DNA from: an uncultured Candidatus Binatia bacterium
Lineage (GTDB): Bacteria > Desulfobacterota > Binatia > DP-6
Direction of reading: 5' to 3'
Length of the DNA stretch: 64,000 nucleotides
Assembly (NCBI GenBank): GCA_964404165.1
Contig: CAYOIZ010000032.1
Span: forward strand, 5,573-69,572
A model generated the notes under the pieces. That model was given only the letters and a program-made list of their open reading frames with translations. It did not search any database and had not been told where the DNA came from. This document shows positions 8,652 through 54,991 of the stretch, piece after piece. The translations under genes were made by a program, and so were the position numbers. Position 1 is the first letter of the stretch; every line of letters begins with the position of its first letter.

Positions 8652-8715
8652 CGGAACATCGTTCCGGCCGATTGTACGCCTCCGGGGCAGACCACTGCTG
8701 CCGAAGGAGGCTCAC

Positions 8716-9366: not shown

Positions 9367-9389
9367 ACGTCCCACCCACGTTGCAGCAG

Positions 9390-9425
9390 CTCGGCCCCGT
9401 CGTGGAACACCGCGACGGGGCCGAG
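9390..9425. terminator. Strong GC hairpin downstream of 8716..9366 (terminator-like, no U-tract)
   Basis: CTCGGCCCCGTCG / CGACGGGGCCGAG forms a 13-bp perfect stem. Confidence 0.45.
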
Positions 9426-9515
9426 TCGCGTCTGGGACACGCGCACGCGGAACGCGGTTCACGTCGGTGGAACGCCGGTCGGGCAGACGCACCACCAACC
9501 GAAAGGACCCGAACC

Positions 9516-11099
9516 ATGACACCCATCCGCTTCGTGACGATCGCAACGCTGCTCGGAAGCATCGTCAGCCTCGGCGCGCCGACGTCGGCGCCCGCCGCGA
9601 CGCATGGCCTGCACGCCGACTTCAACGGCGACGGCTACGCCGACCTCGCCGTCGGCATCCCCTACGACGACAACGGCGTGCGCGGTGGCGGCGTGCAGGT
9701 GCTCTACGGCCGCAAGGGCGGGCTGTCGTCGACCGGCAGCCAGCTGTGGACGCAGAACACGCTCGGCATTCCGGATGCGACCGAGACCGACGATCTCTTC
9801 GGCGACGCCATCGCCGCCGGCGACTTCGACCACGACGGCTTCGACGACCTCGCGGTCGGCGTCCCGCAGGAGACGATCGGCGGTGTCTGGAGCGCCGGCG
9901 CCGTGCACGTCCTCTACGGCTCGACGACGGGTCTCAAGAGCGTGCGCACGCAGCTCTGGACCCAGGACGGCGACGGCATCGTCGACGCCGTCGAGCCGGG
10001 TGACCGCTTCGGCGCGGCGCTCACCGCCGACGACTTCAACGACGACGGCTACGACGATCTCGCCGTCGGCGTCCCCGGCGAGTCGGGCGTCGGCTACGAC
10101 AAGGAGCGGATCGGCGCGGCGCACGTCCTCTACGGCTCGTACGCCGGGCTCGACGACGCCTTCAACCAGCTCTGGACGCAGGACAGCCCCGACGTGGAGG
10201 GTGTGGCGGAACGCTTCGACCAACTCGGCGAAACGCTCGCGTCGGGCGACTTCGACGGCGACGGCCACGCCGATCTCGCGATCGCCGCGGTGTACGAGGA
10301 CGTCGGCACCAGGGTGCTCGCCGGCTCGGTCAACGTGCTCTACGGCTCGTACTACCGGCTCACGGCCACCGGCAATCGCCTCTGGCACCGCGATCTCGCC
10401 GGCATGGGCGGCGCGGCGGCGTATCAGCGCTTCGGCGCCGCCCTCGGTGCGGGCGACTTCGACGGCGACGGCTACGGCGACCTGGCCGTCGGCGCGCCCA
10501 CCAGCGAGGTCGTGGAGGGGAACGTCGGCTCCGTCGACCTGCTCTACGGATCGCCCGCGGGGCTCGGCATCGTGCGGCACCAGGTGCTGCACGAGGCGCT
10601 CCCCGGCGTGCTGGGCACGCCGTCGATGAACGATCTCTTCGGCCACGCGCTCGCCGCGGGGGACTGGAACCACGACGGGCGTGACGATCTCGCCGTCGGC
10701 GTCCCCGGAGAGACCATCTCCGGCAAGAAGTTCGCCGGTGCGGTGCACGTGTTCCACGGCGCGTCGACCGGGCTCAACGACCTCGACGGGCTGGTGGGCT
10801 TCTCCGATCAGGTGTGGACGCAGGGCTCGCCCGGCATCGAGGGGGCGGTCGAGTCGGACGATCATTTCGGCGAGGCGCTCACGACCGGGGACTTCGACGG
10901 CGACGGCACCGACGACCTCGCGATCGGTGTCTTCGGTGAGGCGATCGGCAAGGCGCACGGTGCCGGCGCGGTGAACGTGCTCTACGGCCGGGTCGGCGGC
11001 ATCACGTCGAGCCGCGACCAGGTGTTCCACCAGGGCAGCGCCGGCATCGCGGGGGATCCGCTGGCCAACGACTGGTTCGGCGCCCGTCTCGGACGGTAG
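9516..11099 (+). CDS. Secreted FG-GAP repeat (integrin-alpha-like beta-propeller) protein
   Basis: Repeated FGxAL-x-GDFDGDGxxDLAVGxP units. ATG at 9516 follows SD AAAGGA and starts a signal peptide. Confidence 0.92.
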   Translation: MTPIRFVTIATLLGSIVSLGAPTSAPAATHGLHADFNGDGYADLAVGIPYDDNGVRGGGVQVLYGRKGGLSSTGSQLWTQNTLGIPDATETDDLFGDAIAAGDFDHDGFDDLAVGVPQETIGGVWSAGAVHVLYGSTTGLKSVRTQLWTQDGDGIVDAVEPGDRFGAALTADDFNDDGYDDLAVGVPGESGVGYDKERIGAAHVLYGSYAGLDDAFNQLWTQDSPDVEGVAERFDQLGETLASGDFDGDGHADLAIAAVYEDVGTRVLAGSVNVLYGSYYRLTATGNRLWHRDLAGMGGAAAYQRFGAALGAGDFDGDGYGDLAVGAPTSEVVEGNVGSVDLLYGSPAGLGIVRHQVLHEALPGVLGTPSMNDLFGHALAAGDWNHDGRDDLAVGVPGETISGKKFAGAVHVFHGASTGLNDLDGLVGFSDQVWTQGSPGIEGAVESDDHFGEALTTGDFDGDGTDDLAIGVFGEAIGKAHGAGAVNVLYGRVGGITSSRDQVFHQGSAGIAGDPLANDWFGARLGR

Positions 11100-27145: not shown

Positions 27146-27958
27146 TCAGGGGACGCAGTCGGACGTTGCACCGACGACGTTGTCCTTCCACACGTTGCCC
27201 TTGCAGACGGGGCCGGCGATGTCCGCGCCCGTGCCGCTGCCGGTGACGGTGTTGCCGATCGTCTTGTTGCGCTTGCCGACGATGGCGATGCCATAGCCAC
27301 TATTGTTGGACACGGTATTGGCGGTGACTTTGTTGGCCTTGCCCTCGACGTCGATGCCCTCGTCGGCGTTGTCGGACACCGTGTTGCCGGTGATCGCGTT
27401 CCCGTTGACCTCGATGATGTCGATGCCGTCCTCGCCGTTCGCGGTGACGACGTTGCCGGTGATGCTGTTCTTGTGGCCGCGGATGTCGAGGCCGTCGTTG
27501 CCGTTGCCGGTGACCGTGTTGTTGGAGATGCGGTTCCGGCTCGACCCCTCGGGGACGTAGATGCCGTCGTAGTTGCCCGGCGCGTCGCGGACCGTCAGGC
27601 CCTCCGCGACGTGCTTGCCCTTGCCGGCGAGCACGACGTTGTCGAGGCATCCGACGACGGTGCCGTTGCGGATGGTCGCCTTCTTGCCGATGAGCACGAT
27701 GCCGTTCGGCAGGCGCTCGTTGCCGTTCGTGTCGGCGCAGGAGACGGTGTGGCCCCCGAGATCGAGCGTGGCCGAGTCGACCGTCAGCGCCTGCTCGACG
27801 CCGTCGCACGGGCCGAGGTCGGCGGTCAGGACGACGGTCGAGCCCTTGGCGATGGTCTCCCCGCAAGCGACCTGGGCGGAGGCGTGGGTCGGAAGGGTGG
27901 CGGCCAGGAGGCCGAGGGTCAGGGCCAGGCGTCGTCGCGTGTGTGCAGCAGTGGTCAT
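27146..27958 (-). CDS. Secreted right-handed parallel beta-helix repeat protein
   Basis: Signal peptide and repeats of NxIxxNTVTxNxxDGIxI. Confidence 0.88.
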   Translation of the reverse strand: MTTAAHTRRRLALTLGLLAATLPTHASAQVACGETIAKGSTVVLTADLGPCDGVEQALTVDSATLDLGGHTVSCADTNGNERLPNGIVLIGKKATIRNGTVVGCLDNVVLAGKGKHVAEGLTVRDAPGNYDGIYVPEGSSRNRISNNTVTGNGNDGLDIRGHKNSITGNVVTANGEDGIDIIEVNGNAITGNTVSDNADEGIDVEGKANKVTANTVSNNSGYGIAIVGKRNKTIGNTVTGSGTGADIAGPVCKGNVWKDNVVGATSDCVP

Positions 27959-28042
27959 CGTCGTCTCCTCGTTCGGCCCCGGACGGGGCACGGTGATCTC
28001 GATGGGATGGCGTTCAATGGCGCGGAACGGTGTTCCGGGACG

Positions 28043-29761: not shown

Positions 29762-29844
29762 GCCCCGTCCTGGTTTGACACTCAGGCCCCCCTCCCCGAA
29801 CATTTCGATCACGTGCGCCGCCCCGGCGCGCGGACGGGGAGGGG

Positions 29845-30981
29845 ATGATGGGGACACGGATGCACCGCCATCTCGGCGTCGCGCTGCTGCTCGCGACGCT
29901 GGGAGCCGGCACCGCCAGCGGCCAGACCGCGGCGACGCCAGACCAGCTCGAGACGCTCGTGGCGCCCATCGCGCTCTACCCGGACTCGCTGGTGGCGAAC
30001 ATCCTGCCGGCGTCGACGTTCCCGGTGGAGATCGTCGAGGCCGAGCGCGTGCTCTCCGCGGGCGCCCCGACCGACGCGCAGATGCAGGGATGGGATCCGA
30101 GCATCCAGGCCCTGACCTCCGCGCCGAGCGTCCTCAAGATGATGAACGACCGCCTCAGCTGGACGACGCAGCTCGGACAGGCGGTGGCGCAGGATCAGGG
30201 TGCGGTGATGGCGGCGGTGCAGGACGTGCGCGCCAAGGCGCAGGCCGCGGGCAACCTCAAGTCGAACGACCGCCAGACGGTGACGGCGCAGAACGACACC
30301 ATCATCATCGCGCCGGCGAATCCCCAGGTGCTCTACGTGCCGCAGTACGATCCGGTCGCGATCCTCGCGCCGGCGCCGGCGTGGGGCTACTACCCCGCCG
30401 GCTACGGCCTGCTGAGCTTCGGGGCGGGCTTCGCGGCCGGCGCCTTCGTCGGCTACGGCGCCGACTGGGGCAACTGGCACGGCGGCTACAGCCACGTCAC
30501 GGTCAACAACAACTACCACTACAACCGCAACACGAACGTCAACGTCAACACGAACGACGTCAACACGGCGCGATGGAATCCGCCGTCCAACGTCGGGCAC
30601 ATCCAGGCCGGCGGCAGCAGCGACGGGTGGGGCAGCTCCTCGTCGGGCGGCGCGCAGCGCACGCTCGGCAACGACGACCGTCTCGGTGGGAACGGCTTCG
30701 GGAACGACGCGCCTCGCACCGACGACGCCGCCGCGCGTCGCGACGACGGTGCCGGCTTCGGCGACGCCGGGCACCGTGACGACGGTGGCGCCTGGGGCGG
30801 CGGTCGCGCCGCCGCCGATGCGAGCGCCTTCCACGGCGTCGGTGGCGACGGGTGGGACACGCGCGCCGCGAGCGACCGTGGCGACCGCAGCTTCGGCGGC
30901 GGGGGCTTCGGCGGCGGCGGCTTCGGGCGTGGCGGCGGCGGATTCGGCGGCGGTGGTGGTGGCGGTCGTGGCCGTCGCTGA
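29845..30981 (+). CDS. DUF3300 domain protein with Gly/Arg-rich tail
   Basis: QLETLVAPIALYPDSL, WDPS, WTTQLGQA, VMAAVQ and YVPQYDP motifs. Confidence 0.9.
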   Translation: MMGTRMHRHLGVALLLATLGAGTASGQTAATPDQLETLVAPIALYPDSLVANILPASTFPVEIVEAERVLSAGAPTDAQMQGWDPSIQALTSAPSVLKMMNDRLSWTTQLGQAVAQDQGAVMAAVQDVRAKAQAAGNLKSNDRQTVTAQNDTIIIAPANPQVLYVPQYDPVAILAPAPAWGYYPAGYGLLSFGAGFAAGAFVGYGADWGNWHGGYSHVTVNNNYHYNRNTNVNVNTNDVNTARWNPPSNVGHIQAGGSSDGWGSSSSGGAQRTLGNDDRLGGNGFGNDAPRTDDAAARRDDGAGFGDAGHRDDGGAWGGGRAAADASAFHGVGGDGWDTRAASDRGDRSFGGGGFGGGGFGRGGGGFGGGGGGGRGRR

Positions 30982-30997
30982 GCGAGGTGGGGAGGCA

Positions 30998-31735
30998 ATG
31001 CGCATGACGACGACGAACGGGGGGCGCGCGCGCGCCGTGCTGGGTGCGGCGCTCGTAGCGCTTGCCGGTTGCTCGACCATCGGGCGGAGCGTGCAGAACG
31101 AGGGCGTTCCGCCGCACTTCGCCACGCCGACGGCGGCGGCCGACGCGCTCGTCGACGCGTGCAAGCGGCAGGACACCGCGCGTCTCGTCAGTCTCTTCGG
31201 CGAGCAGTATCGCACCCTCGTCTCCACCGGTGACGCGGCCGACGACCGCGCGCGCTGCGAACGGTTGGTGAAGGCGTCCGGCGAGATGCTGCGCCTCGAC
31301 CCGTGGGGCGACGACTGGGCCGTGATGGTGGTCGGTGCCGACGACTTCCCGATCGCCGTACCGATCGTGAAGGACGCCAGGGGCTGGTACTTCAACGGCG
31401 CCGCCGGCGTCGCGGAGGTGCACCGTCGCCACGTCGGGGCCGACGAGCTCGCCGCCATCGCCACGTTGCGCGTATGGGCGCGCCAGGGCCAGACGCCGCC
31501 GTCCGAGTGGATGGGCTATCGCTTCCGCGTCGTGCAGGCGCCGGGCACGGGCGGCAAGGGAACGTCGAAGGCGCTGCTCGCGTACCCGACGGCGTACCGC
31601 AGCACCGGCATCAAGACCTTCGTGGTCCGGCCGGGCGGCGAGGTGCGCGAGCACAACCTCGGTGCGGACACGGTGCCGATGGCCGCCGCCATGACGTCGG
31701 TCGACCCGAGTGGCTGGGCTGTGGTGCTCGACTAG
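30998..31735 (+). CDS. DUF2950 family protein (lipoprotein, apparently internally shortened)
   Basis: FATPTAAADAL, DDFPIAVPIVK...WYFN..AG..E, GYRFRV and AYP..YRSTGIKTFVV motifs. It follows DUF3300 and has an LAGC lipobox. Confidence 0.82.
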   Translation: MRMTTTNGGRARAVLGAALVALAGCSTIGRSVQNEGVPPHFATPTAAADALVDACKRQDTARLVSLFGEQYRTLVSTGDAADDRARCERLVKASGEMLRLDPWGDDWAVMVVGADDFPIAVPIVKDARGWYFNGAAGVAEVHRRHVGADELAAIATLRVWARQGQTPPSEWMGYRFRVVQAPGTGGKGTSKALLAYPTAYRSTGIKTFVVRPGGEVREHNLGADTVPMAAAMTSVDPSGWAVVLD

Positions 31736-35637: not shown

Positions 35638-35646
35638 AACGAGTCG

Positions 35647-36468
35647 ATGCAGGACCAGGACCTGGCCGCGCACCGCGATCGCATCGCGCGCGACGGCTAC
35701 ACCATCATCGAGAACGCCATCGAGCCGGAGCTCGTCGCCGCCCTGAACGAGGACCTCGTGAAGCTCGAGCGCGAGTACGACATCGTCCCGGCCAACAATC
35801 CGTTCGAGGGTGCGCACACGGTCCGCATCTACAACCTGCTGGTGCACGGCCCGCTCTACGAGCGCATCCCGGTGCACGAGAACGTGCTGCCGGTGGTCGA
35901 GAGCGTGCTCGACCCGGGCTGCCTGGTGTCGTCGCTGTCGTCGATCAGCATCGATCCGGACGAGCGCGCCCAGCCCATCCACGCCGACGACCAGCTCATC
36001 CCGATCCCGAAGCCGCACGTGCCCACCGTCTGCAACACCATGTGGGCGCTCACCGACTTCACCGAGGCCAACGGCGCCACCCGCATCATCCCCGGCTCCC
36101 ACCTGCGCGATCATTCGCCTACGTTCGGCGAACACTACGACAGCATCCCCGCCGAGATGGCGCGTGGCAGCGTACTCGTGTGGCACGGCAGCCTCTGGCA
36201 CGGCGGCGGCGCCAACCGTACCGGGCAGCGTCGCGTCGGCATCGCCATGAACTACTGCGCGGGCTGGATCCGCCAGCAGGAGAACCAGCAGCTCGGCATT
36301 CCGCGTGAGGTCGCGCGCGGCTTCGCGCCGCGGCTGCGCGAGCTGATCGGCTACGGCATCTACAGCGGTCTCATCGGTCACATCGACAAGCGCACGCCGG
36401 CACGCGTGCTGCTCGACGATCGCAAGGGCGGGGGCATGCTGTGGGACCGCTACGCGGGCAAGGCGTGA
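35647..36468 (+). CDS. Phytanoyl-CoA dioxygenase (PhyH) family Fe(II)/2OG dioxygenase
   Basis: QPIHADD (HxD), [13 protein letters not shown] and WHGGGANRT motifs. Confidence 0.92.
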
Positions 36469-37673
36469 CGCCGTCGTTCGACACCGCGTTCGCGCCGTTC
36501 GACGACGCGTTCCGGCGCGACCCGTTCGCGGTCTACGCCCGCGCGCGTCGCGAGCACCCCGTCTACGCCCATCCGAGCTTCCCCGCCGTCTCGGTGTTCC
36601 GCTACGACGACGTGCAGAACCTGCTGCGCGATCCCGTCACCTGGTCGAGCCACTTCCCGCTGCCGGAGGGGCTCGAGCGGCCGGGCGACATGCCGCCCAG
36701 CATGCTCGGATCGGATCCGCCGGCGCACACGCGCCTGCGCGGGCTCGTCAGCCAGGCGTTCACGCCGCGCATGGTGAAGCGGCTCGAGCCGCGCATGCGC
36801 CGCATCGCGCACGAGCTGCTCGACGACGCCGTCATGCAGCGCGACGTCGACCTGGTGCAGGCGCTGACGCGGCCGCTGCCGGTCATCGTCATCGCCGAGA
36901 TGATCGGCATCCCGGCGGGCGATCGCGCGCGCTTCACGGTGTGGTCGGATGCGCTCGTCGCCACGCTCGGCGTCGGGCTCTTCACCGGGGTGAGCGCCGA
37001 GCGCCTCGAGCGCCAGCGCGGCGTCATCCGCGAGCTGCGCGAGTACTTCCTGCCGCTGGTCGAGGAGCGTCGCAGCGAGCCGCGCGAGGACCTCCTGAGC
37101 GGGCTCGTCGCCGCCGAGCTCGAGGGCTCGCGGCTCAGCTTCGACGAGATGATCCAGATGCTGATCCTGCTGCTCGTCGCCGGCAACGAGACGACGACCA
37201 ACCTGATCGGCAACGCCGTCCTCGAGCTGCTCGATCATCCCGACGCGCTCGATCACGTCTGGGGACGGCCCGAGCTGCTGGCGGGCGCGGTGGACGAGGT
37301 CATGCGGTTCTCGTCACCCGTCCAGCTGGATCCGCGCCGGGCGACGCGGGCGCTCGAGCTGCACGGCGTGCCGGTGGCCGAGAACCAGATCGTCATCGGC
37401 TGGATCGGTGCCGCCAACCGCGACGAGTCGGTGTTCACGCGGCCCGACGTGTTCGACATCGAGCGGCGCGACAACCGCCATCTCGGTTTCGGCTTCGGGC
37501 CGCACTTCTGCCTCGGTGCCAGCCTGGCCGGCCTCGAGACCCGCGTCGCGCTGGGGGCGCTGCTCGAGCGCACCCGGAGCTTCCGGCGGCTCGACGCCAC
37601 GCCCCTGCCGCTCCACCCGAGCCTGGTGTTCCGGGGCGTCACCGCGCTCCCGCTCCGTCTCGACGCGGCCTGA
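36465..37673 (+). CDS. Cytochrome P450
   Basis: [19 protein letters not shown] (ExxR) and [10 protein letters not shown] heme-Cys motifs. GTGA overlap with PhyH. Confidence 0.95.
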
Positions 37674-43200: not shown

Positions 43201-44565
43201 CTACTCCACCGCCAGCACCCGCCCCCAACACGGCGGCACCTCGATCCGCATCCGATCGCCCGTGGCCTCCAGCGGCACCCCGCGATCGAGCCGGTCGACG
43301 AGCCGCCGCCCGCGCCATTCCGCCGCGATCGAGACGACCACCGGCGCGTGCGACGCATTGACCGCGGTGACCACCGTCTCCTCCGCGCACACGCGCGCGA
43401 ACGCGAGCTGCTCGGACGCTACGTGCAACGCCCGGTAGTCGCCGCGTCGGAGGGCCGGGCTCGCGTGACGCACGCGCGCCAGCCGCGCGATGACATCCGC
43501 CAGCTCCGGATGGGCCGCATTCGCGGGAGGCCGCGGACCGTCGATGGCCGGACGCAGCGGCGCGTCGCTGTCCGGACGTCGCACGCCCGGAATGCCCCAC
43601 TCGCTGCCGTAGTAGATCGACGGCACCCCCGGCATCGTGAACAGCAGGACGTGGAGCGGATAGAGGTGCGCGGCGTCGCGCAGCTGGCTCGCGATCCGCG
43701 TGACGTCGTGGTTGTCGGCGAAGGCGTAGAGGGGCAGGCCGCGATACCGACCCTCGCGGCCGAACTGTCGCTCCAGGGTGTGCGCGAGCTCGAAGTAGTT
43801 GCGGTCGTCGTGGCTCGAGTACAGCCCCTTGTAGGCCTGGTAGTTCGTGACGCTGTCGAGCGTCTCGGGATTCGCCCAGCGCGCGTAGTTGCCGTGGATG
43901 ACCTCGCCGAGCAGCCAGGCGTCGGGCCGGAGCGCGCGACAGAACCCGGCCAGCTCGCGCAGAAAGTCGGAATCGATCGACTCGGCGACGTCGAGCCGCA
44001 GCCCGTCGATGTCGTAGCGCTCGAACCAGTGGCGCACGGCGGCGAGGAGATGGTCGCGCACCGGACGTTGCCCGAGGTCGAGCTTCACCAGCTCGTGGTG
44101 GCCGCGCCAGGTGTCGTAGGCGAACGCGTCCCCGAGCGGGCTCCGTCGCGAGAAGTCGACGCCGGCGAACCAGGCGCGGTGGTCGGACGCCTCGCCGCGC
44201 TGTTGGACGTCCCGGAACGCCCAGAACGTGCGGCCGACGTGATGGAAGACGCCGTCGAGGATGACGCGGATGCCGCGCCGGTGGCAGGCGGCGACCAACG
44301 CGGCGAGCGTGTCGTCGTCACCGAGCCGGCGATCGACGCGGAAGTAGTCGGCGGTGTCGTAGCCGTGCGTCGCGGACTCGAACAGCGGGCCGAGATAGAG
44401 CGCGGTGACGCCGAGCGTGCACCAGTGGTCGATCCAGTCGTGGAGCGCCGCGAGGCGGGGAACCGGCGTCGACGTGCCGTCGTTCGCCGCCGGCGCACCG
44501 CACAGGCCGAGCGGATAGACGTGGTAGAAGACGGCGTCGCGCGCCCAGTCCGTCCCGGAGGCCAT
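43201..44565 (-). CDS. GH13 alpha-amylase family (cyclomaltodextrinase/neopullulanase-like)
   Basis: HGYDTADY, DGVFHH, GLRLDVA, LGEVIH, FADNHD and PSIYYGSE motifs. Confidence 0.92.
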   Translation of the reverse strand: MASGTDWARDAVFYHVYPLGLCGAPAANDGTSTPVPRLAALHDWIDHWCTLGVTALYLGPLFESATHGYDTADYFRVDRRLGDDDTLAALVAACHRRGIRVILDGVFHHVGRTFWAFRDVQQRGEASDHRAWFAGVDFSRRSPLGDAFAYDTWRGHHELVKLDLGQRPVRDHLLAAVRHWFERYDIDGLRLDVAESIDSDFLRELAGFCRALRPDAWLLGEVIHGNYARWANPETLDSVTNYQAYKGLYSSHDDRNYFELAHTLERQFGREGRYRGLPLYAFADNHDVTRIASQLRDAAHLYPLHVLLFTMPGVPSIYYGSEWGIPGVRRPDSDAPLRPAIDGPRPPANAAHPELADVIARLARVRHASPALRRGDYRALHVASEQLAFARVCAEETVVTAVNASHAPVVVSIAAEWRGRRLVDRLDRGVPLEATGDRMRIEVPPCWGRVLAVE

Positions 44566-44647
44566 GCGGCTTCGGCGCTATACCCGATCCGTCGGTGTGG
44601 CCAGCCCTCTCGACAGCATGGGCACCGACTGGACTATGATCCGCCGC

Positions 44648-45745
44648 ATGGAGACGACACGCCCCGGCTGGCTCTACTCCTGCGACGATCACCTCGATCT
44701 CTGGAACCTCCCGCGCGACGTCTGGGAGGCACGCCTGCCGGCGCGCTTCCGCGATCGCGGCCCGCGTGTCGTCGAGTCGAACGGCGGCGCATGGTGGTCG
44801 TGCGACGGCGCGGTGATCGGCATGTACGGCATGCAGGGGCCCATGAAGGGCTACAGCGCCATCAGTCGCGCCGGCATCGAGGACGACGGTCTGCGCGCCT
44901 CGACCCCGTCGCTCCGCCTGCAGGACATGGACCGTGACGGGGTGTGGGTGTCGGTGGTCTACGGCCCGCACCTGCTCGGCCTGCCGATCGACGACGTCGA
45001 GCTCAAGGCCGCATCGCTCGCGGCCTACAACGACTGGGCGGCGGAGTTCAATCGCGTCGAGCCGGCGCGGCTCTCGGTGCTGCCCGTCCTGCCGACGCAT
45101 GCGCCCGACGCTGCGGCGGCCGAGCTCCAGCGCGTCGCCGCCGCCGGCCACCGTGGCGCGATCATCAGCCCGTTCGAGTTCCGATGCAGCGATCCCGAGT
45201 GGTCGGGCTTCTGGGACGTCGCCGCCGAGGTCGGCCTGCCGATCAGCTTCCACATCGGTCGCGGGACCTCGCAGGTGCGCGTCGCACCGGGCAGCTGGGA
45301 GCTGGCGGCGTTCTCCGCGGTGGGCCCGATGCAGCTCGATGAGCCGCTCGCCATGATGATCTACTCCGGCGTGCTCGAGCGTCGTCCCGGGCTGCGACTG
45401 GTGCTGGCCGAATCGGGGATCGGCTGGCTGCCGTACTTCGTGCGCCGGCTCGACGCCGCGGCGGAGAAGCACATCGACAAGGCGCGCGACTACCGCATCA
45501 CGATGAAGCCGAGCGAGATCTTCCACCGTCAGGTCTACGCGACGTTCGAGGAGGAGCCGCTCGGCCCCGAGCTGCTGCCGCTGCTCGGCCCCGACAACTT
45601 CATGTGGGCCTCCGACTATCCGCATCCCGACAGCACGTTCCCGCACTCGCGCGACGCCGTCGCGGAGGCGTTCAGCGGCCTCGACGCCGCGTTCGTCGAG
45701 CGCGTCACCGTCACCAACTGCAAGCAGCTCTACGGCTTCGCATGA
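44648..45745 (+). CDS. Amidohydrolase family 2 protein
   Basis: DDHL, RLQDMDRDG, AYNDW, FHIG, AESGIGW and WASDYPH.DSTFP motifs. Confidence 0.9.
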   Translation: METTRPGWLYSCDDHLDLWNLPRDVWEARLPARFRDRGPRVVESNGGAWWSCDGAVIGMYGMQGPMKGYSAISRAGIEDDGLRASTPSLRLQDMDRDGVWVSVVYGPHLLGLPIDDVELKAASLAAYNDWAAEFNRVEPARLSVLPVLPTHAPDAAAAELQRVAAAGHRGAIISPFEFRCSDPEWSGFWDVAAEVGLPISFHIGRGTSQVRVAPGSWELAAFSAVGPMQLDEPLAMMIYSGVLERRPGLRLVLAESGIGWLPYFVRRLDAAAEKHIDKARDYRITMKPSEIFHRQVYATFEEEPLGPELLPLLGPDNFMWASDYPHPDSTFPHSRDAVAEAFSGLDAAFVERVTVTNCKQLYGFA

Positions 45746-46653
45746 CGTCGCCGGTCATCGTCGAGGTGGCGATCAACGGCGCGACGCAGAAATCGCGCAA
45801 TCCCCACGTGCCGACGACGCCGGCCGAGATCGCGCGCGAGGCGCTCGCCTGCATGGCGGCCGGCGCCGCCATCGTCCACAACCACATCGACGACTTCTCG
45901 CGCACCGGCGCCGACGCGGCGGAGCGCTACCTCGACGGCTGGCGACCCGTCGTGGCCGAGCGGCCCGACGCCATCCTCTACTGCACGGTCGCCATCGGGG
46001 GCTCGGTGGAGGACCGCTTCTCGCACGTGCCGCCGCTGGCGGCGTCGGGCCTCATGCGCATGGGCGTCCTCGACCCCGGCTCGGTGAATCTCGGCAGCTC
46101 CGGTCCCGACGGCCTGCCCGGCGGCATCGACTTCCTCTACGCCAACACCTACGGCGACATCCGTTACGTCGTGTCGCAGCTCGACGACTGTCGCCTCGGG
46201 CCGAGCATCTCGATCTTCGAGCCGGGCTTCCTGCGCACGGCGCTGGTCTATCATCGAGCGGGGCGGCTGCCGCGCGGGTCGTTCGTCAAGCTCTACTTCG
46301 GCGGCGACCACGGCTATCTCGGCGGCGGCGCCACGACCTTCGGCCTTCCCCCGACGACGCGTGCGCTCGACGCGTATCTCGAGCTGCTCGACGGGTGCGA
46401 TCTGCCGTGGGCGGTCGCGGTCATCGGCGGCGACGTCGTCGCGAGCGGTCTGGCGCGCACGGCGCTCGAACGCGGGGGCCACGTGCGCGTCGGGCTCGAG
46501 GACTACGCCGGGTCGCGCACGCCGACGAACGTCGAGCTGGTGGACGAGGTGACGGCGTTGGCACGTGCGGTCGGTCGTCCGGTGGCCACGCCGGACGCGG
46601 CGGCGCGACGCCTCGATCTGCCGCGTCAGCGGTCGACGCGGAACACGGGGTAG
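45742..46653 (+). CDS. 3-keto-5-aminohexanoate cleavage (BKACE, DUF849) family protein
   Basis: VAING...NPHVP.TPAEIA, GAAIVHNH, FEPG and HVRVGLED motifs. ATGA-coupled to the amidohydrolase. Confidence 0.9.
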   Translation: MTSPVIVEVAINGATQKSRNPHVPTTPAEIAREALACMAAGAAIVHNHIDDFSRTGADAAERYLDGWRPVVAERPDAILYCTVAIGGSVEDRFSHVPPLAASGLMRMGVLDPGSVNLGSSGPDGLPGGIDFLYANTYGDIRYVVSQLDDCRLGPSISIFEPGFLRTALVYHRAGRLPRGSFVKLYFGGDHGYLGGGATTFGLPPTTRALDAYLELLDGCDLPWAVAVIGGDVVASGLARTALERGGHVRVGLEDYAGSRTPTNVELVDEVTALARAVGRPVATPDAAARRLDLPRQRSTRNTG

Positions 46654-48699: not shown

Positions 48700-49284
48700 T
48701 CACAAGCAGGCGTCGCGGAGCGCGCGGAAGGCCTTCGCGAGCGCCGGGGGCTGCCAGTGGGCGTTCAGGCCGCTCGGGTTCGGGAGCAGCCAGACGCGCG
48801 CGCCGGCGAGTCGCACCGTCTGCGGACCGACGGTTGCATGCGGGTCGCCGAAGGCGATGCGATACGACACCAGGCCGAGGAAGGCGACCATCGACGGCCG
48901 GATGCGGGACACCAGCCGCGCCAGGCGCTTTCCGCCGCGCACCAGCTCGTCGGGGGTCAGCTCGTCGGCCGTGGCCGTCGTCCGTGGCACCAGGTTCGTG
49001 ACGCCGAGGCCGAACCCGAGGAGCGCGCGATCCTCGCACGGCGACAGCTGGCGCGGCGTGAGCCCGGCCGCATGCAGGGTCGGCCAGAACCGGTTGCCCG
49101 GCCGCGCGAAGTGGTGTCCCGTCGCGCCCGAATAGAGGCCGGGGTTGATGCCGACGAAGAGGATGCGCAGGCCCGGTGCGACGACGTCGCGGAGGACGAG
49201 CGCCGACGCGGCGCGCAGTGCGGCGGCGTCGGGTCGCGGGTGTCGCCCGGGGCCGGGACACGGAGCGGGGCGGCGACGCGTCAC
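48700..49284 (-). CDS. mug: G/U mismatch-specific DNA glycosylase
   Basis: LFVGINPG, HHFA.PGNRFW, GVTNLV and LPNPSG motifs. Confidence 0.92.
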   Translation of the reverse strand: MTRRRPAPCPGPGRHPRPDAAALRAASALVLRDVVAPGLRILFVGINPGLYSGATGHHFARPGNRFWPTLHAAGLTPRQLSPCEDRALLGFGLGVTNLVPRTTATADELTPDELVRGGKRLARLVSRIRPSMVAFLGLVSYRIAFGDPHATVGPQTVRLAGARVWLLPNPSGLNAHWQPPALAKAFRALRDACL

Positions 49285-49333
49285 GGCGCCGGGATACGTG
49301 CCGCCGGCGTCGCAGACAAGGCGATCGAAATCG

Positions 49334-49363
49334 TTGACGCCAAGGACCGCCCGGCGGTAGGAC
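49334..49363 (+). promoter_or_regulatory. Candidate sigma70 promoter for the copper monooxygenase-like gene
   Basis: TTGACG-N18-TAGGAC. Confidence 0.3.
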
Positions 49364-49380
49364 GCGGCCGGGGGATATCC

Positions 49381-50619
49381 ATGCAGAAATCCTGCGCCGT
49401 CCTGCTCGCCGTCACGACGCTGCTCGTCGCCGGTCCGGCCGTGGCGAAGACGAAGGACAAGATCGTCAAGCTACGCGTCGGCCCGTTCCCCGTGGAGGCC
49501 CAGCGCGATCGCGAGATCTGCCAGGCCGTTCGGGTGCCGGGCATGGCGGGCATGGAGATCACCAACTACGAGGTCCGCACCAAGTGGAGTGCGAAGGGTG
49601 ACGTCGGCAGCCATCACCTCGTGGTGTACGGCTATGGTGGCGCGGCGGCGGCGGGGTTCCCGGTGCGGAAGAACGAGACCGACGTCGTCGACATCCCCGG
49701 CTGCAACGGCTTCGGGCCCGACGACTTCTACCGCAGTCGCGTCCAGCTCGCCGGCTCGGGTGGCGAGTTCCGGCGCGGTCGCTGGGCGGTGACGAGCGCA
49801 CGAACGCCGCTCGGTCTCGCCTCGCTCCTGCCGCGTACCGGCGACGCCGGCGACGACGCCTTCGTCGTGGTGAACTCGCACTACTTCAATCGCTCGTCGA
49901 AGCGTTCGAAGGGCGTGGTGAAGGTCATCCTGACGCTGCGCCCGTTCGACGGCCTGCGCCGCGTGGTGCGGAACTGGACGCCACTCGACGCCAGCCTCGA
50001 CATCGCGGTGCCGCCGCACCAGACGGGCACCGCCGAGGCGACGATCCAGCTCGACGGCGCCGCCGACGAGAACGCCGAGGGCGGGTTCCGTCCGTCCAGC
50101 GACGTCTGCGTGCTCCTCATGACGACCCACACGCACGCGCGCGGCACGCGCGTGAAGGTGGTGTACGAGGAGGACGGCAAGGAGCCGGTGACGATCGTCG
50201 ATCCGGCGGTCTACGACTACGAGCATCCGTCGCTGGTGGCGCTGCCGTTCTCGGGCACCTTCCCGAACGGCAACCTGCTGAAGGCCTACACCGCGGAGAA
50301 CGGCCACCCGCGGCTCCGCTACACCTGCACGTACGCCAACGGCGGCGGCGAGTACGGCGTGCGCATGGGCTGCGAGATGGAGCCCGGCGTGACGCCCGGC
50401 ATCCCGTGGCGCGACGCGCGCGGCGCCGGATACGACTTTGGCAACGCGCGCCCCTGCGGCGCGGACGATTCGAATTGCGCCGGCGTCGGCACCGGCCGGT
50501 GCGTCGAGTCGAACCTGGTGTTCGGGCCGCTCTCCGACGACGAGATGTGCGTCATCCCGCTGCAGATCTACGATCCTGTGGCGGGGGCGTCCGACGACCT
50601 GGCCTGCAACCCGTACTGA
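49381..50619 (+). CDS. Secreted type II copper monooxygenase-like protein (PHM/DBM fold)
   Basis: Signal peptide, then SHH, NSHY, HTH and DEMC in the order and spacing of the PHM CuH/CuM ligands. Confidence 0.75.
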   Translation: MQKSCAVLLAVTTLLVAGPAVAKTKDKIVKLRVGPFPVEAQRDREICQAVRVPGMAGMEITNYEVRTKWSAKGDVGSHHLVVYGYGGAAAAGFPVRKNETDVVDIPGCNGFGPDDFYRSRVQLAGSGGEFRRGRWAVTSARTPLGLASLLPRTGDAGDDAFVVVNSHYFNRSSKRSKGVVKVILTLRPFDGLRRVVRNWTPLDASLDIAVPPHQTGTAEATIQLDGAADENAEGGFRPSSDVCVLLMTTHTHARGTRVKVVYEEDGKEPVTIVDPAVYDYEHPSLVALPFSGTFPNGNLLKAYTAENGHPRLRYTCTYANGGGEYGVRMGCEMEPGVTPGIPWRDARGAGYDFGNARPCGADDSNCAGVGTGRCVESNLVFGPLSDDEMCVIPLQIYDPVAGASDDLACNPY

Positions 50620-50644
50620 ACCGACCGGCACCACGGAGGAATCG

Positions 50645-51142
50645 ATGCGACGAGGGATCGCCCTGCTCGGACTGCTGCTCGCGGCTGCCCCGGCGTTCGC
50701 CGGCTACGCGAGCGTCTACCTCGTGCCGGCACTGGTCGAGTGCCCGGGACCGGCGACGTGTCCGCGCGAGTACGAGTCGACCTACACCTTCGACGCGATC
50801 GTGCTCCGCACCTCGGCGTCGAAGTACATGCCGGTGAAGAAGCCGACCCTCCTCGTCGACCTCCGCGGCGTGCGCGACGCCTCGGGTGCGCTGGCCGACG
50901 GGGTGGTCAGCGTGAAGGTGCTGTCGGGCCGGGTCAGCATCCCGGGCTTCGGCACGCTGCCCGACGGCTCGCCGCTCGCCGAGCAGCCGCCGATCGCCGT
51001 CACCCTGACGAAGGGCAAGGGCAAGCTCGTCTACCGTGCGCCGGCCAGCCCGAACGGGCTGGTGACGAACGGTGGTGGTGTCGAGGTGCGCGACCCCGAG
51101 GGCAAGCTGCTCGCCGTGACCGGCTCGCAGAGCAAGCCCTGA
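50645..51142 (+). CDS. Secreted hypothetical protein
   Basis: SD GGAGG, signal peptide ending AFA, and a CPGPATC motif. Starts 25 nt after the previous gene. Confidence 0.75.
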   Translation: MRRGIALLGLLLAAAPAFAGYASVYLVPALVECPGPATCPREYESTYTFDAIVLRTSASKYMPVKKPTLLVDLRGVRDASGALADGVVSVKVLSGRVSIPGFGTLPDGSPLAEQPPIAVTLTKGKGKLVYRAPASPNGLVTNGGGVEVRDPEGKLLAVTGSQSKP

Positions 51143-51811
51143 CTACATGCTGAGCGGCTTCGCGAGCGCCTCCAGCACCTGCGCGTAGAGCCCGGTCTTC
51201 AGGGTTCGCATCACGGCGTCGGCCTTCGGGGCGCGCTCGCCGGCGATCGCCGTCGCACGGGCCAGGATCGCGTCCTCCGCCAGCGCCTCCTCGACGATGC
51301 CGAGGGCGCGTGCGTCCGCGCCGCCGAAGCGACGGCCCGTCGTCACCACCTCGTGCGCCGTCTGCCCGGGGAGGCGCGACTGCAGGATGGCGACCATGCC
51401 GGGGTGGAGCGGAATCTTCATGTCCACCTCTGGCATGCAGAAGAAGCCGCGGTCGCTGCGCATGAGGCGTACGTCGTGCACCAGGCCGAGGAGCGCGCCG
51501 GCGCCGAAGGCGTGGCCGTTCATGGCGGCGACGGTCGGTGCCGGGAAGGTGAGGACGCGACCGAGGATGCCGAGCACGCGTGCCAGGTAGGCGCCCGCCG
51601 ATCCGGCGCCGCCGCGCATCATCTCCTCGAGGTCGAGCCCGTTCGAGTAGAACTTGCCGGTGCCGGTGGTGACGAGCGCCGCCGGCGCTCCGGCCCGCTC
51701 GACGGTATCGAGCGCCTCGTCCAGCGCATCCATCAGGCCGGGAGTGAACCGATTCTCCCCGGCGTCGAGCCGGAGGACGAAGACGTCGCCGTCACGAGAG
51801 CATTCCAGCAT
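51143..51811 (-). CDS. Enoyl-CoA hydratase/isomerase family protein
   Basis: ENRF, GKFYSNGLDL, AAMNGHAFGAG and FCMPE motifs. Confidence 0.92.
   Translation of the reverse strand: MLECSRDGDVFVLRLDAGENRFTPGLMDALDEALDTVERAGAPAALVTTGTGKFYSNGLDLEEMMRGGAGSAGAYLARVLGILGRVLTFPAPTVAAMNGHAFGAGALLGLVHDVRLMRSDRGFFCMPEVDMKIPLHPGMVAILQSRLPGQTAHEVVTTGRRFGGADARALGIVEEALAEDAILARATAIAGERAPKADAVMRTLKTGLYAQVLEALAKPLSM

Positions 51812-52870: not shown

Positions 52871-54991
<2,121 letters not shown>

What the first reader, a model, noticed from the sequence alone, without database searches (positions are those of the whole stretch)
49381..51142. Secreted bacterial PHM/dopamine-beta-monooxygenase-like copper enzyme with a co-transcribed secreted partner
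Seen: after a signal peptide come SHH (about 49610), NSHY (about 49875), HTH (about 50128) and DEMC (about 50540), plus several Cys including a C-terminal Cys-rich insert. A second secreted unknown follows 25 nt later. Known: animal PHM binds CuH through His-His...His and CuM through His-x-His...Met, in this order. Bacterial members are largely uncharacterised, and no PAL (NHL-repeat lyase) is adjacent. Inference: an intact two-copper monooxygenase acting outside the cytoplasm on an unknown substrate. The partner could be a reductant shuttle, chaperone or substrate. PHM/PAL chemistry yields glyoxylate, and a malate synthase is in the window, but that link is speculative.
Basis: partly seen in the sequence, partly recalled or inferred. 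Interest (0 to 1): 0.7.

Follow-up and report, generated by a model that had tools for sequence, protein, structure and literature searches.

The report
Bacterial PHM-like copper monooxygenase with partner
An uncultured soil bacterium (Binatia) encodes an exported relative of the animal copper enzymes that make amidated hormones and noradrenaline; it is always paired with a small exported protein of no known family, and its substrate is unknown.

Summary
Gene A (49381-50619, 412 aa) has a Sec-type signal peptide and the residues H78-H79, H167 (NSHY), H250-x-H252 and M389 (DDEMC). All six are invariant in 39 homologues. An AlphaFold model (pLDDT 87.7) matches only human dopamine beta-hydroxylase and rat PHM at high significance (Foldseek E about 1e-12). 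A profile alignment puts all six residues on PHM's CuH and CuM ligands (hhalign probability 94%). Pfam misses the protein (18.1 bits, cut-off 23). Every homologue that carries a source name is called 'hypothetical protein'.

Gene B (50645-51142, 165 aa) lies 25 nt downstream behind a GGAGG. It follows A in all 11 orthologous loci examined, and nothing else is conserved around the pair. B is an orphan beta-sandwich. It has one Cys pair, no conserved His or Met, no haem motif, and a conserved C-terminal tail (VTGSQSKP). This argues against a copper chaperone or a redox shuttle.

PHM's peptide-binding residues (R240, N316, Y318) are not conserved, there is no PAL, and I found no malate synthase, so amidation chemistry is unlikely.

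Best reading: a periplasmic two-copper monooxygenase with an obligate non-redox partner. Longer, remote relatives carry a fused cytochrome-c-like domain, which suggests haem rather than ascorbate as the electron donor in those proteins. I class it as a new variant of a known kind.

The parts
49381..50619 (+). Gene A: exported PHM/DBH-like two-domain copper monooxygenase homologue, 412 aa plus stop
   Evidence: ORF and translation. 122 homologues found. AlphaFold model pLDDT 87.7, pTM 0.82. Foldseek top hits are DBH 4zel and PHM 1phm/6ala/1opm, E 1e-12 to 1e-10. hhalign against PHM gives probability 94%, E 2e-8.
49381..49446 (+). Signal peptide of A (residues 1-22, cleavage AVA|K). Sec type: no twin arginine and no lipobox.
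   Evidence: Read from the sequence. In the model it is a low-confidence N-terminal helix, residues 2-16. Homologues all have an N-terminal hydrophobic segment ending in A-x-A.
49459..49950 (+). N-terminal beta-sandwich domain (about residues 27-190) carrying the CuH-type ligands H78 and H79 (49612-49617) and H167 (49879-49881). Also holds N165, which aligns with PHM Q170, and the C47/C108 pair.
   Evidence: These residues are invariant. They align with PHM H107/H108, H172 and Q170, and C47 aligns with C81.
49969..50616 (+). C-terminal beta-sandwich domain (about residues 197-412) carrying the CuM-type ligands H250 and H252 (50128-50136) and M389 (50545-50547), plus invariant R254
   Evidence: Invariant residues. 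Sub-threshold Pfam Cu2_monoox_C match over residues 221-284. HTH aligns with PHM H242/H244 and DDEMC with SDEMC (M314).
50341..50505 (+). Cys-rich insert of about 50 residues relative to PHM (about residues 321-375; C331, C359, C366 and C374 invariant; two short helices)
   Evidence: Alignment A1. Model secondary structure, with pLDDT 83-95 in this stretch. Length comparison with PHM C293-M314.
50635..50639 (+). Ribosome-binding site GGAGG, 5 nt upstream of the ATG of gene B, inside the 25-nt A-B spacer
   Evidence: Sequence. In the other loci B starts only about 9-30 nt after the stop of A.
50645..51142 (+). Gene B: exported 165-aa orphan beta-sandwich protein, the obligate partner of A
   Evidence: Translation. 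Found directly downstream of A in all 11 orthologous loci. 101 homologue clusters, all stand-alone and without any Pfam domain. Model pLDDT 78.9, all-beta. No PDB fold match (best E 0.077).
50741..50761 (+). Invariant C33-x5-C39 loop of B (ECPGPATCP), probably a disulfide
   Evidence: Both Cys are invariant. 121 of 124 full-length B proteins have exactly two Cys.
51116..51139 (+). Conserved, flexible C-terminal tail of B (V158-T-G-S-Q-S-K-P165-COOH)
   Evidence: 113 of 124 B homologues end in Pro and 104 of 124 end in [KR]P; the consensus is VTG[SAT][QR][STA][KR]P. pLDDT is below 50 for residues 163-165.

Best explanation
A and B form a self-contained two-gene operon of an uncultured Binatia bacterium. 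Both products are exported by the Sec pathway into the periplasm.

A is a divergent member of the PHM/dopamine-beta-hydroxylase superfamily. I infer that it binds two separate copper ions. One is an electron-accepting CuH site (H78, H79, H167) in the N-terminal beta-sandwich. The other is an O2-activating CuM site (H250, H252, M389) in the C-terminal beta-sandwich. I further infer that, like its animal relatives, it reduces O2 at CuM, abstracts a hydrogen atom from a C-H bond of a substrate held in the cleft between the domains, and hydroxylates it.

The substrate is not a Gly-extended peptide bound in the PHM manner, because PHM's anchoring residues are missing.

B is an obligate partner with no cofactor and no redox function: a beta-sandwich with one disulfide and a conserved free C-terminal tail. 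Most likely it binds A as a subunit that recruits or presents the substrate. Electrons probably come from a periplasmic redox protein or small reductant rather than ascorbate, because longer, remote relatives carry a cytochrome-c-like domain fused in front of the same catalytic core.

What is shown: the fold, the ligand conservation and alignment, the export signals, the operon structure and the strict A-B linkage. What is inferred: copper binding, monooxygenase activity, the A-B physical interaction and the electron donor.
For: Fold: the model has pLDDT 87.7 and pTM 0.82. The only strong PDB matches are human DBH (E 1.4e-12) and about 27 PHM chains (E 1e-11 to 5e-8, probability 1.0). The next fold class, the PRD1/PM2 capsid jelly rolls, comes in only at 1e-5.

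Ligands: H78, H79, H167, H250, H252 and M389 are invariant in 39 sequences. A 118-sequence profile against rat PHMcc (sequence checked against 4e4z_A) gives probability 94.2%, E 2.1e-8 over 292 columns. It pairs HH with H107/H108, NSHY with QVHY (H172, and N165 with Q170), HTH with H242/H244, and DDEMC with SDEMC (M314).

Transitive sequence link: remote relatives P0296 and P0345 match the A profile at 6e-18 and 1.5e-13. They pass the Pfam Cu2_monoox_C gathering score at 31.6 and 41.8 bits against a cut-off of 23. A itself gives a sub-threshold hit (18.1 bits).

Export: both proteins have an N-terminal n-h-c signal peptide. Lnt in the window indicates a diderm cell envelope.

Operon and linkage: there is a 25-nt spacer with GGAGG. 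B lies directly downstream of A in 11 of 11 orthologous loci whose other neighbours differ.

B is not a metal or haem protein: no conserved His or Met, no CxxCH, exactly two Cys.

Electron donor hint: 15 of the 22 relatives of 480 aa or more carry a C-x4-CH domain ahead of the catalytic core (one has it at the C-terminus). It gives weak PSCyt1 or cytochrome-c Pfam matches, 22.6 bits at best against a cut-off of 22.
Against: There is no experimental evidence for copper binding or catalysis in any member of this clade. The ligand geometry in the model (three ligands converging at each site, the two sites about 11 Å apart) could not be measured because coordinates are not readable with these tools. 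A falls below Pfam's thresholds, and its N-terminal domain gives no Pfam hit at all. The substrate is unknown and the genomic neighbours give no hint. No physical A-B interaction was tested: no complex prediction was possible and no fused A-B protein was found. P0113, the only candidate, is a frameshift artefact. A itself has no cytochrome domain, and no cytochrome gene is linked to it. Invariant R254 next to the CuM ligands, together with B's conserved free C-terminus, would fit 'B is the substrate' at least as well as 'B is a subunit'.
Confidence: 0.7

Rival explanations
1. B is not a subunit but the protein substrate, or a caddie-like active-site plug, of A. Its conserved, flexible C-terminal tail (...VTGSQSKP-COOH) would enter the cleft between the two domains. 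Its free carboxylate would be held by invariant R254 beside the CuM ligands. A would then hydroxylate or oxidatively process a tail residue.
For: The position of B's stop codon is conserved: 113 of 124 homologues end in Pro and 104 of 124 end in [KR]P. The tail is conserved yet has low confidence in the model, as expected for a docking peptide. PHM recognises the free C-terminal carboxylate of its substrate through R240, which lies on the CuM ligand strand (PMC12164859). A has an invariant Arg two residues after H252 on the same strand. The strict 1:1 linkage fits an enzyme with a dedicated substrate.
Against: R254 is also conserved in paralogues and remote relatives that lack B, for example the L014 paralogue (SHMHKRG) and P0120, so it is not specific to B. 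The tail has no C-terminal Gly. An operon that makes enzyme and substrate in equal amounts would be unusual for a folded 145-aa protein. No docking or complex model could be run.
Confidence: 0.2
2. A is a true peptidylglycine alpha-hydroxylating monooxygenase, that is, a bacterial amidating enzyme acting on Gly-extended peptides. The glyoxylate released would feed into central metabolism.
For: Same fold and same six ligands as PHM. Its location outside the cytoplasm resembles the secretory-pathway location of PHM.
Against: PHM's substrate anchors are not conserved: R240 is T248, N316 is V391 and Y318 is P393 (roles from PMC12164859, and from my own knowledge of the 1OPM complex). No PAL homologue exists in the 64-kb window or in 28 related loci (tblastn E<=1). 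No precursor-peptide gene or RiPP-type neighbourhood is present. No malate synthase was found. DBH is as good a structural match as PHM.
Confidence: 0.04
3. A is a DBH/tyramine-beta-monooxygenase-like enzyme. It would hydroxylate a small periplasmic amine or aromatic compound, for example a phenylethylamine, as part of nutrient acquisition or secondary metabolism. B would act as a binding protein for that small molecule.
For: The best single structural hit is human DBH. Family chemistry on activated C-H bonds of small molecules is well established. The weak, non-significant top Foldseek hits for B are lipid- or ligand-binding ML-domain beta-sandwiches such as MD-1 and Der p 2.
Against: There are no linked amine-catabolism, transport or biosynthesis genes, and no conserved neighbourhood beyond A and B. 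The ML-domain matches for B are insignificant (E 0.08-0.6, TM 0.2-0.3). There is no DOMON domain.
Confidence: 0.12
4. A is a non-catalytic copper-binding protein of the periplasm (copper buffering or sensing) that merely retains the PHM fold and ligands.
For: Two sets of conserved Cu ligands and a periplasmic location would also fit a copper-binding role. A subset of family representatives has lost all of the motifs, which shows that the scaffold tolerates loss of the metal sites.
Against: No cop, cus or cue genes are linked in any locus. Strict conservation extends to second-sphere positions such as N165 (PHM Q170), Y168, R254 and D387, and remote relatives have a fused electron-transfer domain. 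Both point to redox catalysis. The PHM/DBH members described in the review read here are all enzymes.
Confidence: 0.06

Closest known systems
Peptidylglycine alpha-hydroxylating monooxygenase (PHM, catalytic core of PAM; PDB 1PHM, 1OPM, 1SDW; Pfam PF01082 + PF03712)
   Same: Two-domain beta-sandwich fold (Foldseek E about 1e-11, TM on the target 0.58-0.61). All six copper ligands are in the same order and align residue for residue. The second-sphere Q170 position is kept as N165. The EMC motif is shared. Three Cys align with PHM disulfide Cys: C47 with C81, C390 with C315, and C409 with C334. Both act outside the cytoplasm.
   Different: Only 15-17% identity. A is below Pfam thresholds. The substrate anchors R240, N316 and Y318 are absent. 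A has a Cys-rich insert of about 50 residues before the Met ligand and an insert of about 30 residues in the N-terminal domain. There is no PAL partner. A has an obligate small partner B that PHM does not have. It is bacterial, so ascorbate is an unlikely reductant.
Dopamine beta-hydroxylase / tyramine beta-monooxygenase / MOXD1 (PDB 4ZEL)
   Same: Best single structural match (E 1.4e-12), with the same CuH/CuM catalytic core. DBH has an accessory beta-sandwich domain (DOMON) next to its catalytic core. Gene B might be a loose functional analogue of that domain supplied as a separate protein.
   Different: A has no DOMON or dimerisation domain. B shows no fold similarity to the DOMON domain of 4ZEL, although that entry is in the library searched. 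B has no haem or metal ligands. Nothing indicates an amine substrate.
Streptomyces tyrosinase MelC2 with its caddie protein MelC1 (analogy from my own knowledge)
   Same: A two-gene operon: an exported copper oxidase plus a small exported helper protein. A residue of the helper inserts into the active site.
   Different: The fold and copper site are unrelated (type-3 coupled binuclear copper). MelC1 precedes the enzyme gene, binds copper through His residues and uses Tat export. B follows A, has no conserved His and has a Sec-type signal peptide.
Remote bacterial relatives in which the PHM-like core is fused to a cytochrome-c-like domain, sometimes also to PD40 or dockerin modules (P0120/P0212, P0237, P0307, P0313, P0328, P0345 and others)
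   Same: Same catalytic core, with HH...HxH...[DE]MC and the Cys-rich insert. They occur in uncultured environmental bacteria and are also unannotated.
   Different: They carry an N-terminal domain of about 100 aa with a C-x4-CH motif and weak PSCyt1/cytochrome-c similarity. The three checked, of which only P0120 has the fusion, have no B gene. A has neither the fusion nor a linked cytochrome.

Membership tests
PHM/DBH copper type II monooxygenase superfamily (Pfam PF01082 Cu2_monooxygen + PF03712 Cu2_monoox_C) | Two tandem beta-sandwich (jelly-roll) domains with an interdomain cleft | tested here: met
   Model pLDDT 87.7. Foldseek against PDB: DBH 4zel E 1.4e-12 and about 27 PHM chains at E 1e-11 to 5e-8, probability 1.0, covering about 390 aligned columns across both domains. 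The next fold class is seven orders of magnitude weaker.
PHM/DBH copper type II monooxygenase superfamily (Pfam PF01082 Cu2_monooxygen + PF03712 Cu2_monoox_C) | CuH ligands: His-His on one strand plus a third His (PHM H107, H108, H172) in the N-terminal domain | tested here: met
   H78, H79 and H167 are invariant in 39 sequences. They align with H107, H108 and H172 in two independent hhalign runs.
PHM/DBH copper type II monooxygenase superfamily (Pfam PF01082 Cu2_monooxygen + PF03712 Cu2_monoox_C) | CuM ligands: His-x-His plus Met (PHM H242, H244, M314) in the C-terminal domain | tested here: met
   H250, H252 and M389 are invariant. They align with H242, H244 and M314. The sub-threshold Pfam hit covers the HxH region.
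PHM/DBH copper type II monooxygenase superfamily (Pfam PF01082 Cu2_monooxygen + PF03712 Cu2_monoox_C) | Score above the curated Pfam gathering thresholds | tested here: not met
   Cu2_monoox_C scores 18.1 bits against a cut-off of 23, and there is no Cu2_monooxygen hit. NCBIfam gives nothing. PDB sequence searches give nothing. Membership at the sequence level is only transitive: relatives P0296 and P0345 match the A profile and pass the cut-off at 31.6 and 41.8 bits.
PHM/DBH copper type II monooxygenase superfamily (Pfam PF01082 Cu2_monooxygen + PF03712 Cu2_monoox_C) | Two non-coupled Cu ions about 11 Å apart; O2- and reductant-dependent hydroxylation | not testable with these tools
   Model coordinates cannot be read, and there is no biochemistry. 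This needs metal analysis, EPR and activity assays.
PHM proper (EC 1.14.17.3, peptide amidation) | Residues that bind the peptidyl-Gly substrate: R240 (carboxylate salt bridge), N316 and Y318 | tested here: not met
   The equivalent positions are T248, V391 and P393. The role of R240 is taken from PMC12164859.
PHM proper (EC 1.14.17.3, peptide amidation) | A PAL (NHL-repeat lyase) domain or gene associated with it, to complete amidation | tested here: not met
   tblastn with rat PAL (sequence verified against 3fvz) finds nothing in the window or in 28 related loci at E<=1.
DBH / TBM / MOXD1 subfamily | N-terminal DOMON domain preceding the catalytic core | tested here: not met
   Mature A begins directly with the catalytic core. 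The B model does not match the DOMON domain of 4zel or any other PDB fold (best E 0.077).
Periplasmic copper chaperones (CopC, CusF, PCuAC) or the MelC1-type caddie, as the identity of B | Conserved Met, His or Cys copper-binding motif | tested here: not met
   There is no invariant His or Met. More than half of 124 homologues have no His, and more than half have no Met, in the mature part. The only two Cys form a Pro-rich C-x5-C loop. There are no Pfam or PDB profile hits.
Small redox carriers (c-type cytochrome, cupredoxin), as the identity of B | CxxCH haem motif, or the His/Cys/His/Met type-1 Cu ligand set | tested here: not met
   There is no CxxCH or C-x4-CH, and the mature window protein contains no His. 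No cupredoxin or cytochrome fold match was found.

The most novel reading that the evidence does not exclude
The A-B pair is a new kind of periplasmic copper-dependent protein-modification system. The PHM-like enzyme A would act on the conserved free C-terminal tail (...G-S-Q-S-K-P-COOH) of its dedicated partner B. It would hydroxylate or oxidatively trim the tail, or use it as a removable active-site plug. Together with the cytochrome-fused relatives, this would define a bacterial, ascorbate-independent branch of a family so far characterised only in eukaryotes.
Probability: 0.18. Interest if true: 0.8.

Novelty: new variant of a known kind. Interest (0 to 1): 0.58.

Why it matters
PHM, DBH and TBM are textbook 'non-coupled binuclear copper' enzymes. 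All mechanistic work has been done on animal proteins that depend on ascorbate and are hard to produce. The recent review I read lists no bacterial member (PMC12164859), and seven literature searches found none.

This clade has about 120 clusters at 90% identity and sits inside a wider family of about 500 representatives at 50% identity. It keeps the whole catalytic apparatus but differs from the animal enzymes in three ways. It has lost the peptide-binding residues, gained a Cys-rich insert and acquired an obligate orphan partner. Its relatives have a cytochrome-like domain fused to the core.

If active, these proteins would give a bacterial model, easier to handle than the animal enzymes, for the long-debated long-range CuH-to-CuM electron transfer. 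They would also show how the family is fed electrons without ascorbate, and would point to unknown extracytoplasmic C-H hydroxylation chemistry in Binatia, a widespread uncultured soil and sediment lineage. Practically, both families are currently annotated only as 'hypothetical protein' and could be named.

Tried and rejected
1. Direct sequence searches of A and of its 39-sequence profile against PDB chains gave nothing relevant. Only fold comparison and a broader profile gave the link.
2. hhalign with the narrow A1 profile was weak (probability 5%, pairwise E 0.008), although the ligands already aligned. Adding 80 remote representatives raised it to 94%.
3. A conserved gene neighbourhood was sought as a clue to function. 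An ORF clustering over 11 loci found only A and B, plus their high-GC shadow ORFs, to be shared beyond close relatives. The neighbours in the window are unrelated: SDR, CPBP protease, UDG, enoyl-CoA hydratase, methyltransferase and GlgX.
4. A Rosetta-stone A-B fusion was sought. P0113 (520 aa) is a frameshifted read-through, not a fusion. A profile search with B found only stand-alone proteins.
5. The identity of B could not be established. Pfam on 32 members, a PDB profile search and Foldseek against PDB all gave nothing significant. The DOMON, cupredoxin, CopC and cytochrome ideas were rejected on motifs and fold.
6. The promoter/terminator scan of 49100-51400 found no sigma-70-like site and no terminator on the + strand, which is uninformative in a 71% GC genome.
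7. The malate-synthase/glyoxylate idea was tested. Fifty-four ORFs of the window were scanned with Pfam and none is a malate synthase. No PAL was found.
8. Recent horizontal transfer was rejected, because GC3 of A and B equals that of the neighbours.
9. Seven literature searches found no paper on bacterial PHM/DBH homologues or on this gene pair.
Full report
**1. What is in the sequence**

The finding covers two adjacent + strand genes.

- Gene A runs from 49381 to 50619 and encodes 412 aa. It begins with a typical Sec signal peptide (MQKSCAVLLAVTTLLVAGPAVA|KTK).
- Gene B runs from 50645 to 51142 and encodes 165 aa. It also begins with a signal peptide (MRRGIALLGLLLAAAPAFA|GY).
- The genes are 25 nt apart, and GGAGG lies at 50635-50639, 5 nt before the ATG of B.
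- B ends back to back with a convergent enoyl-CoA hydratase gene. A is transcribed divergently from a UDG-family glycosylase gene. The operon is therefore A plus B only.
- GC3 is 0.93 for A and 0.92 for B, the same as in the neighbouring genes. Both frames are real and the genes are native to this roughly 71% GC genome.
- The long ORFs on the opposite strand, for example 49471-50634 (-), are high-GC shadow ORFs.

**2. Gene A belongs to a coherent, unannotated family**

A protein search found 122 clusters (E down to 1e-283). None has a precomputed Pfam domain, and every one that carries a source name is called 'hypothetical protein'.

In an alignment of 39 members reaching down to about 30% identity, the invariant residues include H78, H79, N165, H167, Y168, H250, H252, R254, D387, M389 and C390. 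Further invariant Cys are C47, C316, C331, C359, C366 and C374, and C108, C243 and C409 are at least 90% conserved. That makes ten Cys, enough for five disulfides.

Direct database matches are almost absent:
- Pfam gives only a sub-threshold Cu2_monoox_C hit (18.1 bits against a cut-off of 23, residues 221-284).
- NCBIfam gives nothing.
- PDB sequence searches give nothing relevant.

**3. The fold is that of PHM/DBH and the ligands correspond one to one**

An AlphaFold2 model built from the alignment is confident (mean pLDDT 87.7, pTM 0.82). It shows two beta-sandwich domains, at roughly residues 27-190 and 197-412.

Foldseek against the PDB returns human dopamine beta-hydroxylase (4zel, E 1.4e-12). 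It then returns about 27 chains of rat PHM (E 1e-11 to 5e-8, probability 1.0, target TM 0.58-0.61, about 390 aligned columns). The next fold class, the PRD1/PM2 double-jelly-roll capsid proteins, appears only at 1e-5.

I checked the rat PHM core sequence against PDB entry 4e4z_A and aligned it to the family profile:
- With the 39-sequence profile the alignment is weak (pairwise E 0.008). It already pairs HH with H107/H108, NSHY with QVHY (H172) and HTH with H242/H244.
- After adding 80 remote representatives, hhalign gives probability 94.2% and E 2.1e-8 over 292 columns. It now also pairs DDEMC with SDEMC (M314), N165 with Q170, C47 with C81, C390 with C315 and C409 with C334.

There is also a transitive sequence link. 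An exhaustive profile search found 514 representatives at E<=1e-3. Two of them, P0296 and P0345, pass Pfam's Cu2_monoox_C gathering score at 31.6 and 41.8 bits. Most of the long representatives keep HH...HxH...[DE]MC in the same order.

**4. What differs from PHM and DBH**

- Identity is only about 15%.
- PHM's substrate anchors are replaced. R240, the salt bridge to the peptide carboxylate (PMC12164859), is T248 in A. N316 is V391 and Y318 is P393.
- A has 73 residues between C316 and M389, where PHM has 21 between C293 and M314. This is a confidently modelled insert of about 50 residues with four invariant Cys and two short helices.
- There is no DOMON domain and no PAL. tblastn with rat PAL (verified against 3fvz) finds nothing in the window or in 28 related loci.
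- I could not find a malate synthase among 54 window ORFs scanned with Pfam.

The amidation/glyoxylate idea should be dropped.

**5. Gene B is an obligate, family-specific partner of unknown type**

In every orthologous locus examined (L001, L003, L005-L007, L009, L010, L012, L013, L017, plus a JGI contig), a B homologue starts roughly 9-30 nt after the stop of A. The other neighbours differ from locus to locus. An all-against-all ORF clustering finds only A and B conserved across the loci.

B is absent next to:
- the 29%-identical paralogues in the same genomes (L014-L016);
- the remote relatives P0118, P0119 and P0120.

B has about 100 homologue clusters. All are stand-alone proteins of 160-250 aa with no Pfam domain. 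Pfam scans of 32 members, a PDB profile search and Foldseek on a reasonable model (pLDDT 78.9, all-beta) give nothing significant; the best Foldseek E is 0.077.

The sequence features of B are informative:
- Exactly two Cys in 121 of 124 members, forming an invariant, Pro-rich C-x5-C loop.
- No invariant His or Met. More than half of the members have no His, and more than half have no Met, in the mature part, and the mature window protein has no His.
- No CxxCH motif.
- A conserved C-terminus: 113 of 124 members end in Pro, 104 of 124 end in [KR]P, and the consensus is VTG[SAT][QR][STA][KR]P. The model is not confident about this tail.

B is therefore very unlikely to be a copper chaperone, a cupredoxin or a cytochrome. 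It is either a structural or substrate-presenting subunit, or itself the substrate or an active-site plug.

**6. Organism and distribution**

A scan of 185,579 species genomes finds orthologues only in metagenome-assembled genomes. These are labelled Candidatus Binatia, 'uncultured delta proteobacterium', Thermodesulfobacteriota, and in one case Limnocylindria. The closest is a Binatia MAG at 79% identity (L005). Paralogues lie in the same MAGs, and remote relatives of 23-26% identity occur in Saprospiraceae and other Bacteroidota.

The window is therefore most likely from a Binatia genome. It encodes Lnt, which is consistent with a diderm envelope, so 'exported' most likely means periplasmic.

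**7. A hint about the electron donor**

Fifteen of the 22 family representatives of 480 aa or more carry a domain of about 100 aa directly in front of the PHM-like core. One more has it at the C-terminus. The domain has the motif SC-x4-CH ... V.PG.P..SFL..KL.G......MP ... WI..GA.

Excised, it gives weak but repeated Pfam matches to PSCyt1 (Planctomycete cytochrome C; 22.6 bits against a cut-off of 22, plus 19.9 and 18.7 bits), to Cytochrome_CBB3, and to the N-terminal region of the fatty acid cis/trans isomerase (CTI) model. I take this to be a probable c-type haem domain feeding CuH. That suggests, but does not show, that the bacterial branch is supplied by haem proteins rather than ascorbate. 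A itself has no such domain and no linked cytochrome gene.

**8. Most likely mechanism**

Shown:
- the PHM/DBH fold;
- the six ligand positions, conserved and aligned;
- export signals on both proteins;
- a two-gene operon;
- strict A-B linkage;
- the absence of cofactor motifs in B.

Inferred:
- A binds two non-coupled coppers. CuH (H78, H79, H167) accepts electrons. CuM (H250, H252, M389) binds O2, abstracts a hydrogen atom and hydroxylates a C-H bond of a substrate held in the cleft.
- B binds A as a non-redox partner.
- The reductant is a periplasmic redox protein or small molecule.

I put 0.7 on this overall picture. Within it, I put about 0.2 on the more unusual version in which B's C-terminal tail is the substrate or a plug. 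The reasoning is that invariant R254 lies two residues after H252, so it should point to the same side of the strand as the CuM ligands. It is reminiscent of PHM R240, which holds the free carboxylate of the substrate. Against this, R254 is also conserved in relatives that lack B.

Other rivals:
- True peptide amidation: about 0.04.
- A DBH-like small-molecule hydroxylase with B as a ligand carrier: about 0.12.
- A non-catalytic copper-binding protein: about 0.06.

**9. Novelty and verdict**

Seven full-text searches found no paper on bacterial PHM/DBH homologues or on this gene pair. A 2025 review lists only PHM, DBM and TBM as members. The solved structures that match the model strongly are all animal PHM or DBH.

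The superfamily and its chemistry are known, so this is not categorically new. It is nevertheless a distinct bacterial variant:
- it is invisible to Pfam and NCBIfam;
- it lacks the peptide-binding residues;
- it carries a Cys-rich insert;
- it has an orphan obligate partner;
- it has cytochrome-fused cousins.

The chaperone/shuttle idea and the malate-synthase idea are not. Interest: 0.58.

Noticed in passing
Related proteins P0120/P0212, P0226, P0237, P0242, P0245, P0307, P0309, P0313, P0318, P0324, P0328, P0333, P0336, P0345, P0353 (N-terminal to the core) and P0267 (C-terminal): Most of the long relatives of A (15 of 22 of 480 aa or more) carry a domain of about 100 aa with a C-x4-CH motif directly before the PHM-like core. 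It gives weak PSCyt1/cytochrome-c Pfam matches (best 22.6 bits, cut-off 22). This is a probable fused c-type haem electron donor. Some also carry PD40 beta-propeller repeats (P0226) or a dockerin module (P0345).
   Followed up: partly
Related proteins P0241, P0243, P0249, P0253, P0255, P0322: Six representatives that match the A profile (E from 6.5e-47 to 7.9e-15) lack HH, HxH and [DE]MC altogether. They are probably paralogues of the same fold that have lost the metal sites.
   Followed up: no
L014:5596-7176 (ORF; protein starts about MLRRALLAV...), L015, L016: The same Binatia-type MAGs that carry the A-B pair also carry a paralogue of A at 29% identity. It has the full ligand set (THH, NSHW, SHMHKRG, EDDMC) but no B gene. 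In L014 its neighbours are an SDR gene and a large membrane protein with many hydrophobic segments (not scanned against Pfam).
   Followed up: partly
Fifty-four ORFs scanned with Pfam include alpha-amylase-family genes (43204-44577, 52871-54991), a BKACE (45745-46653), a thiolase and others, but no malate synthase.
   Followed up: partly
window 29779-30978 and 30416-31732 (+): Neighbouring DUF3300 and DUF2950 matches, both families of unknown function. The stop-to-stop ORFs used for the scan overlap, so the true gene boundaries were not worked out.
   Followed up: no
window 35638-36465 and 36309-37670 (+): A PhyH-family (phytanoyl-CoA dioxygenase-like) gene is directly followed by a cytochrome P450 gene: a second pair of oxygenases in the window, unrelated to A and B.
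   Followed up: no
window 27149-28042 (-): A right-handed beta-helix protein with a NosD (periplasmic copper-binding protein) match. It lies about 21 kb from A, and there is no evidence of a link.
   Followed up: no
window 8652-11096 (+): A large ORF rich in FG-GAP repeats (815 aa from stop to stop). FG-GAP and PD40 repeats also occur near or fused to some relatives of A, which may be coincidental.
   Followed up: no
P0113 (520 aa) and L013:6001-7743: These look like assembly frameshifts. P0113 reads through into nonsense after the PHM-like core. In L013 both A and B are split into several tblastn pieces. Neither is a true fusion or pseudogene call.
   Followed up: partly
window 49471-50634 (-) and 49881-50180 (-): Long ORFs antisense to gene A (387 aa and 99 aa; the second has GC3 0.95). 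They are shadow ORFs typical of 70% GC DNA, and their conservation in other loci only mirrors that of A.
   Followed up: yes
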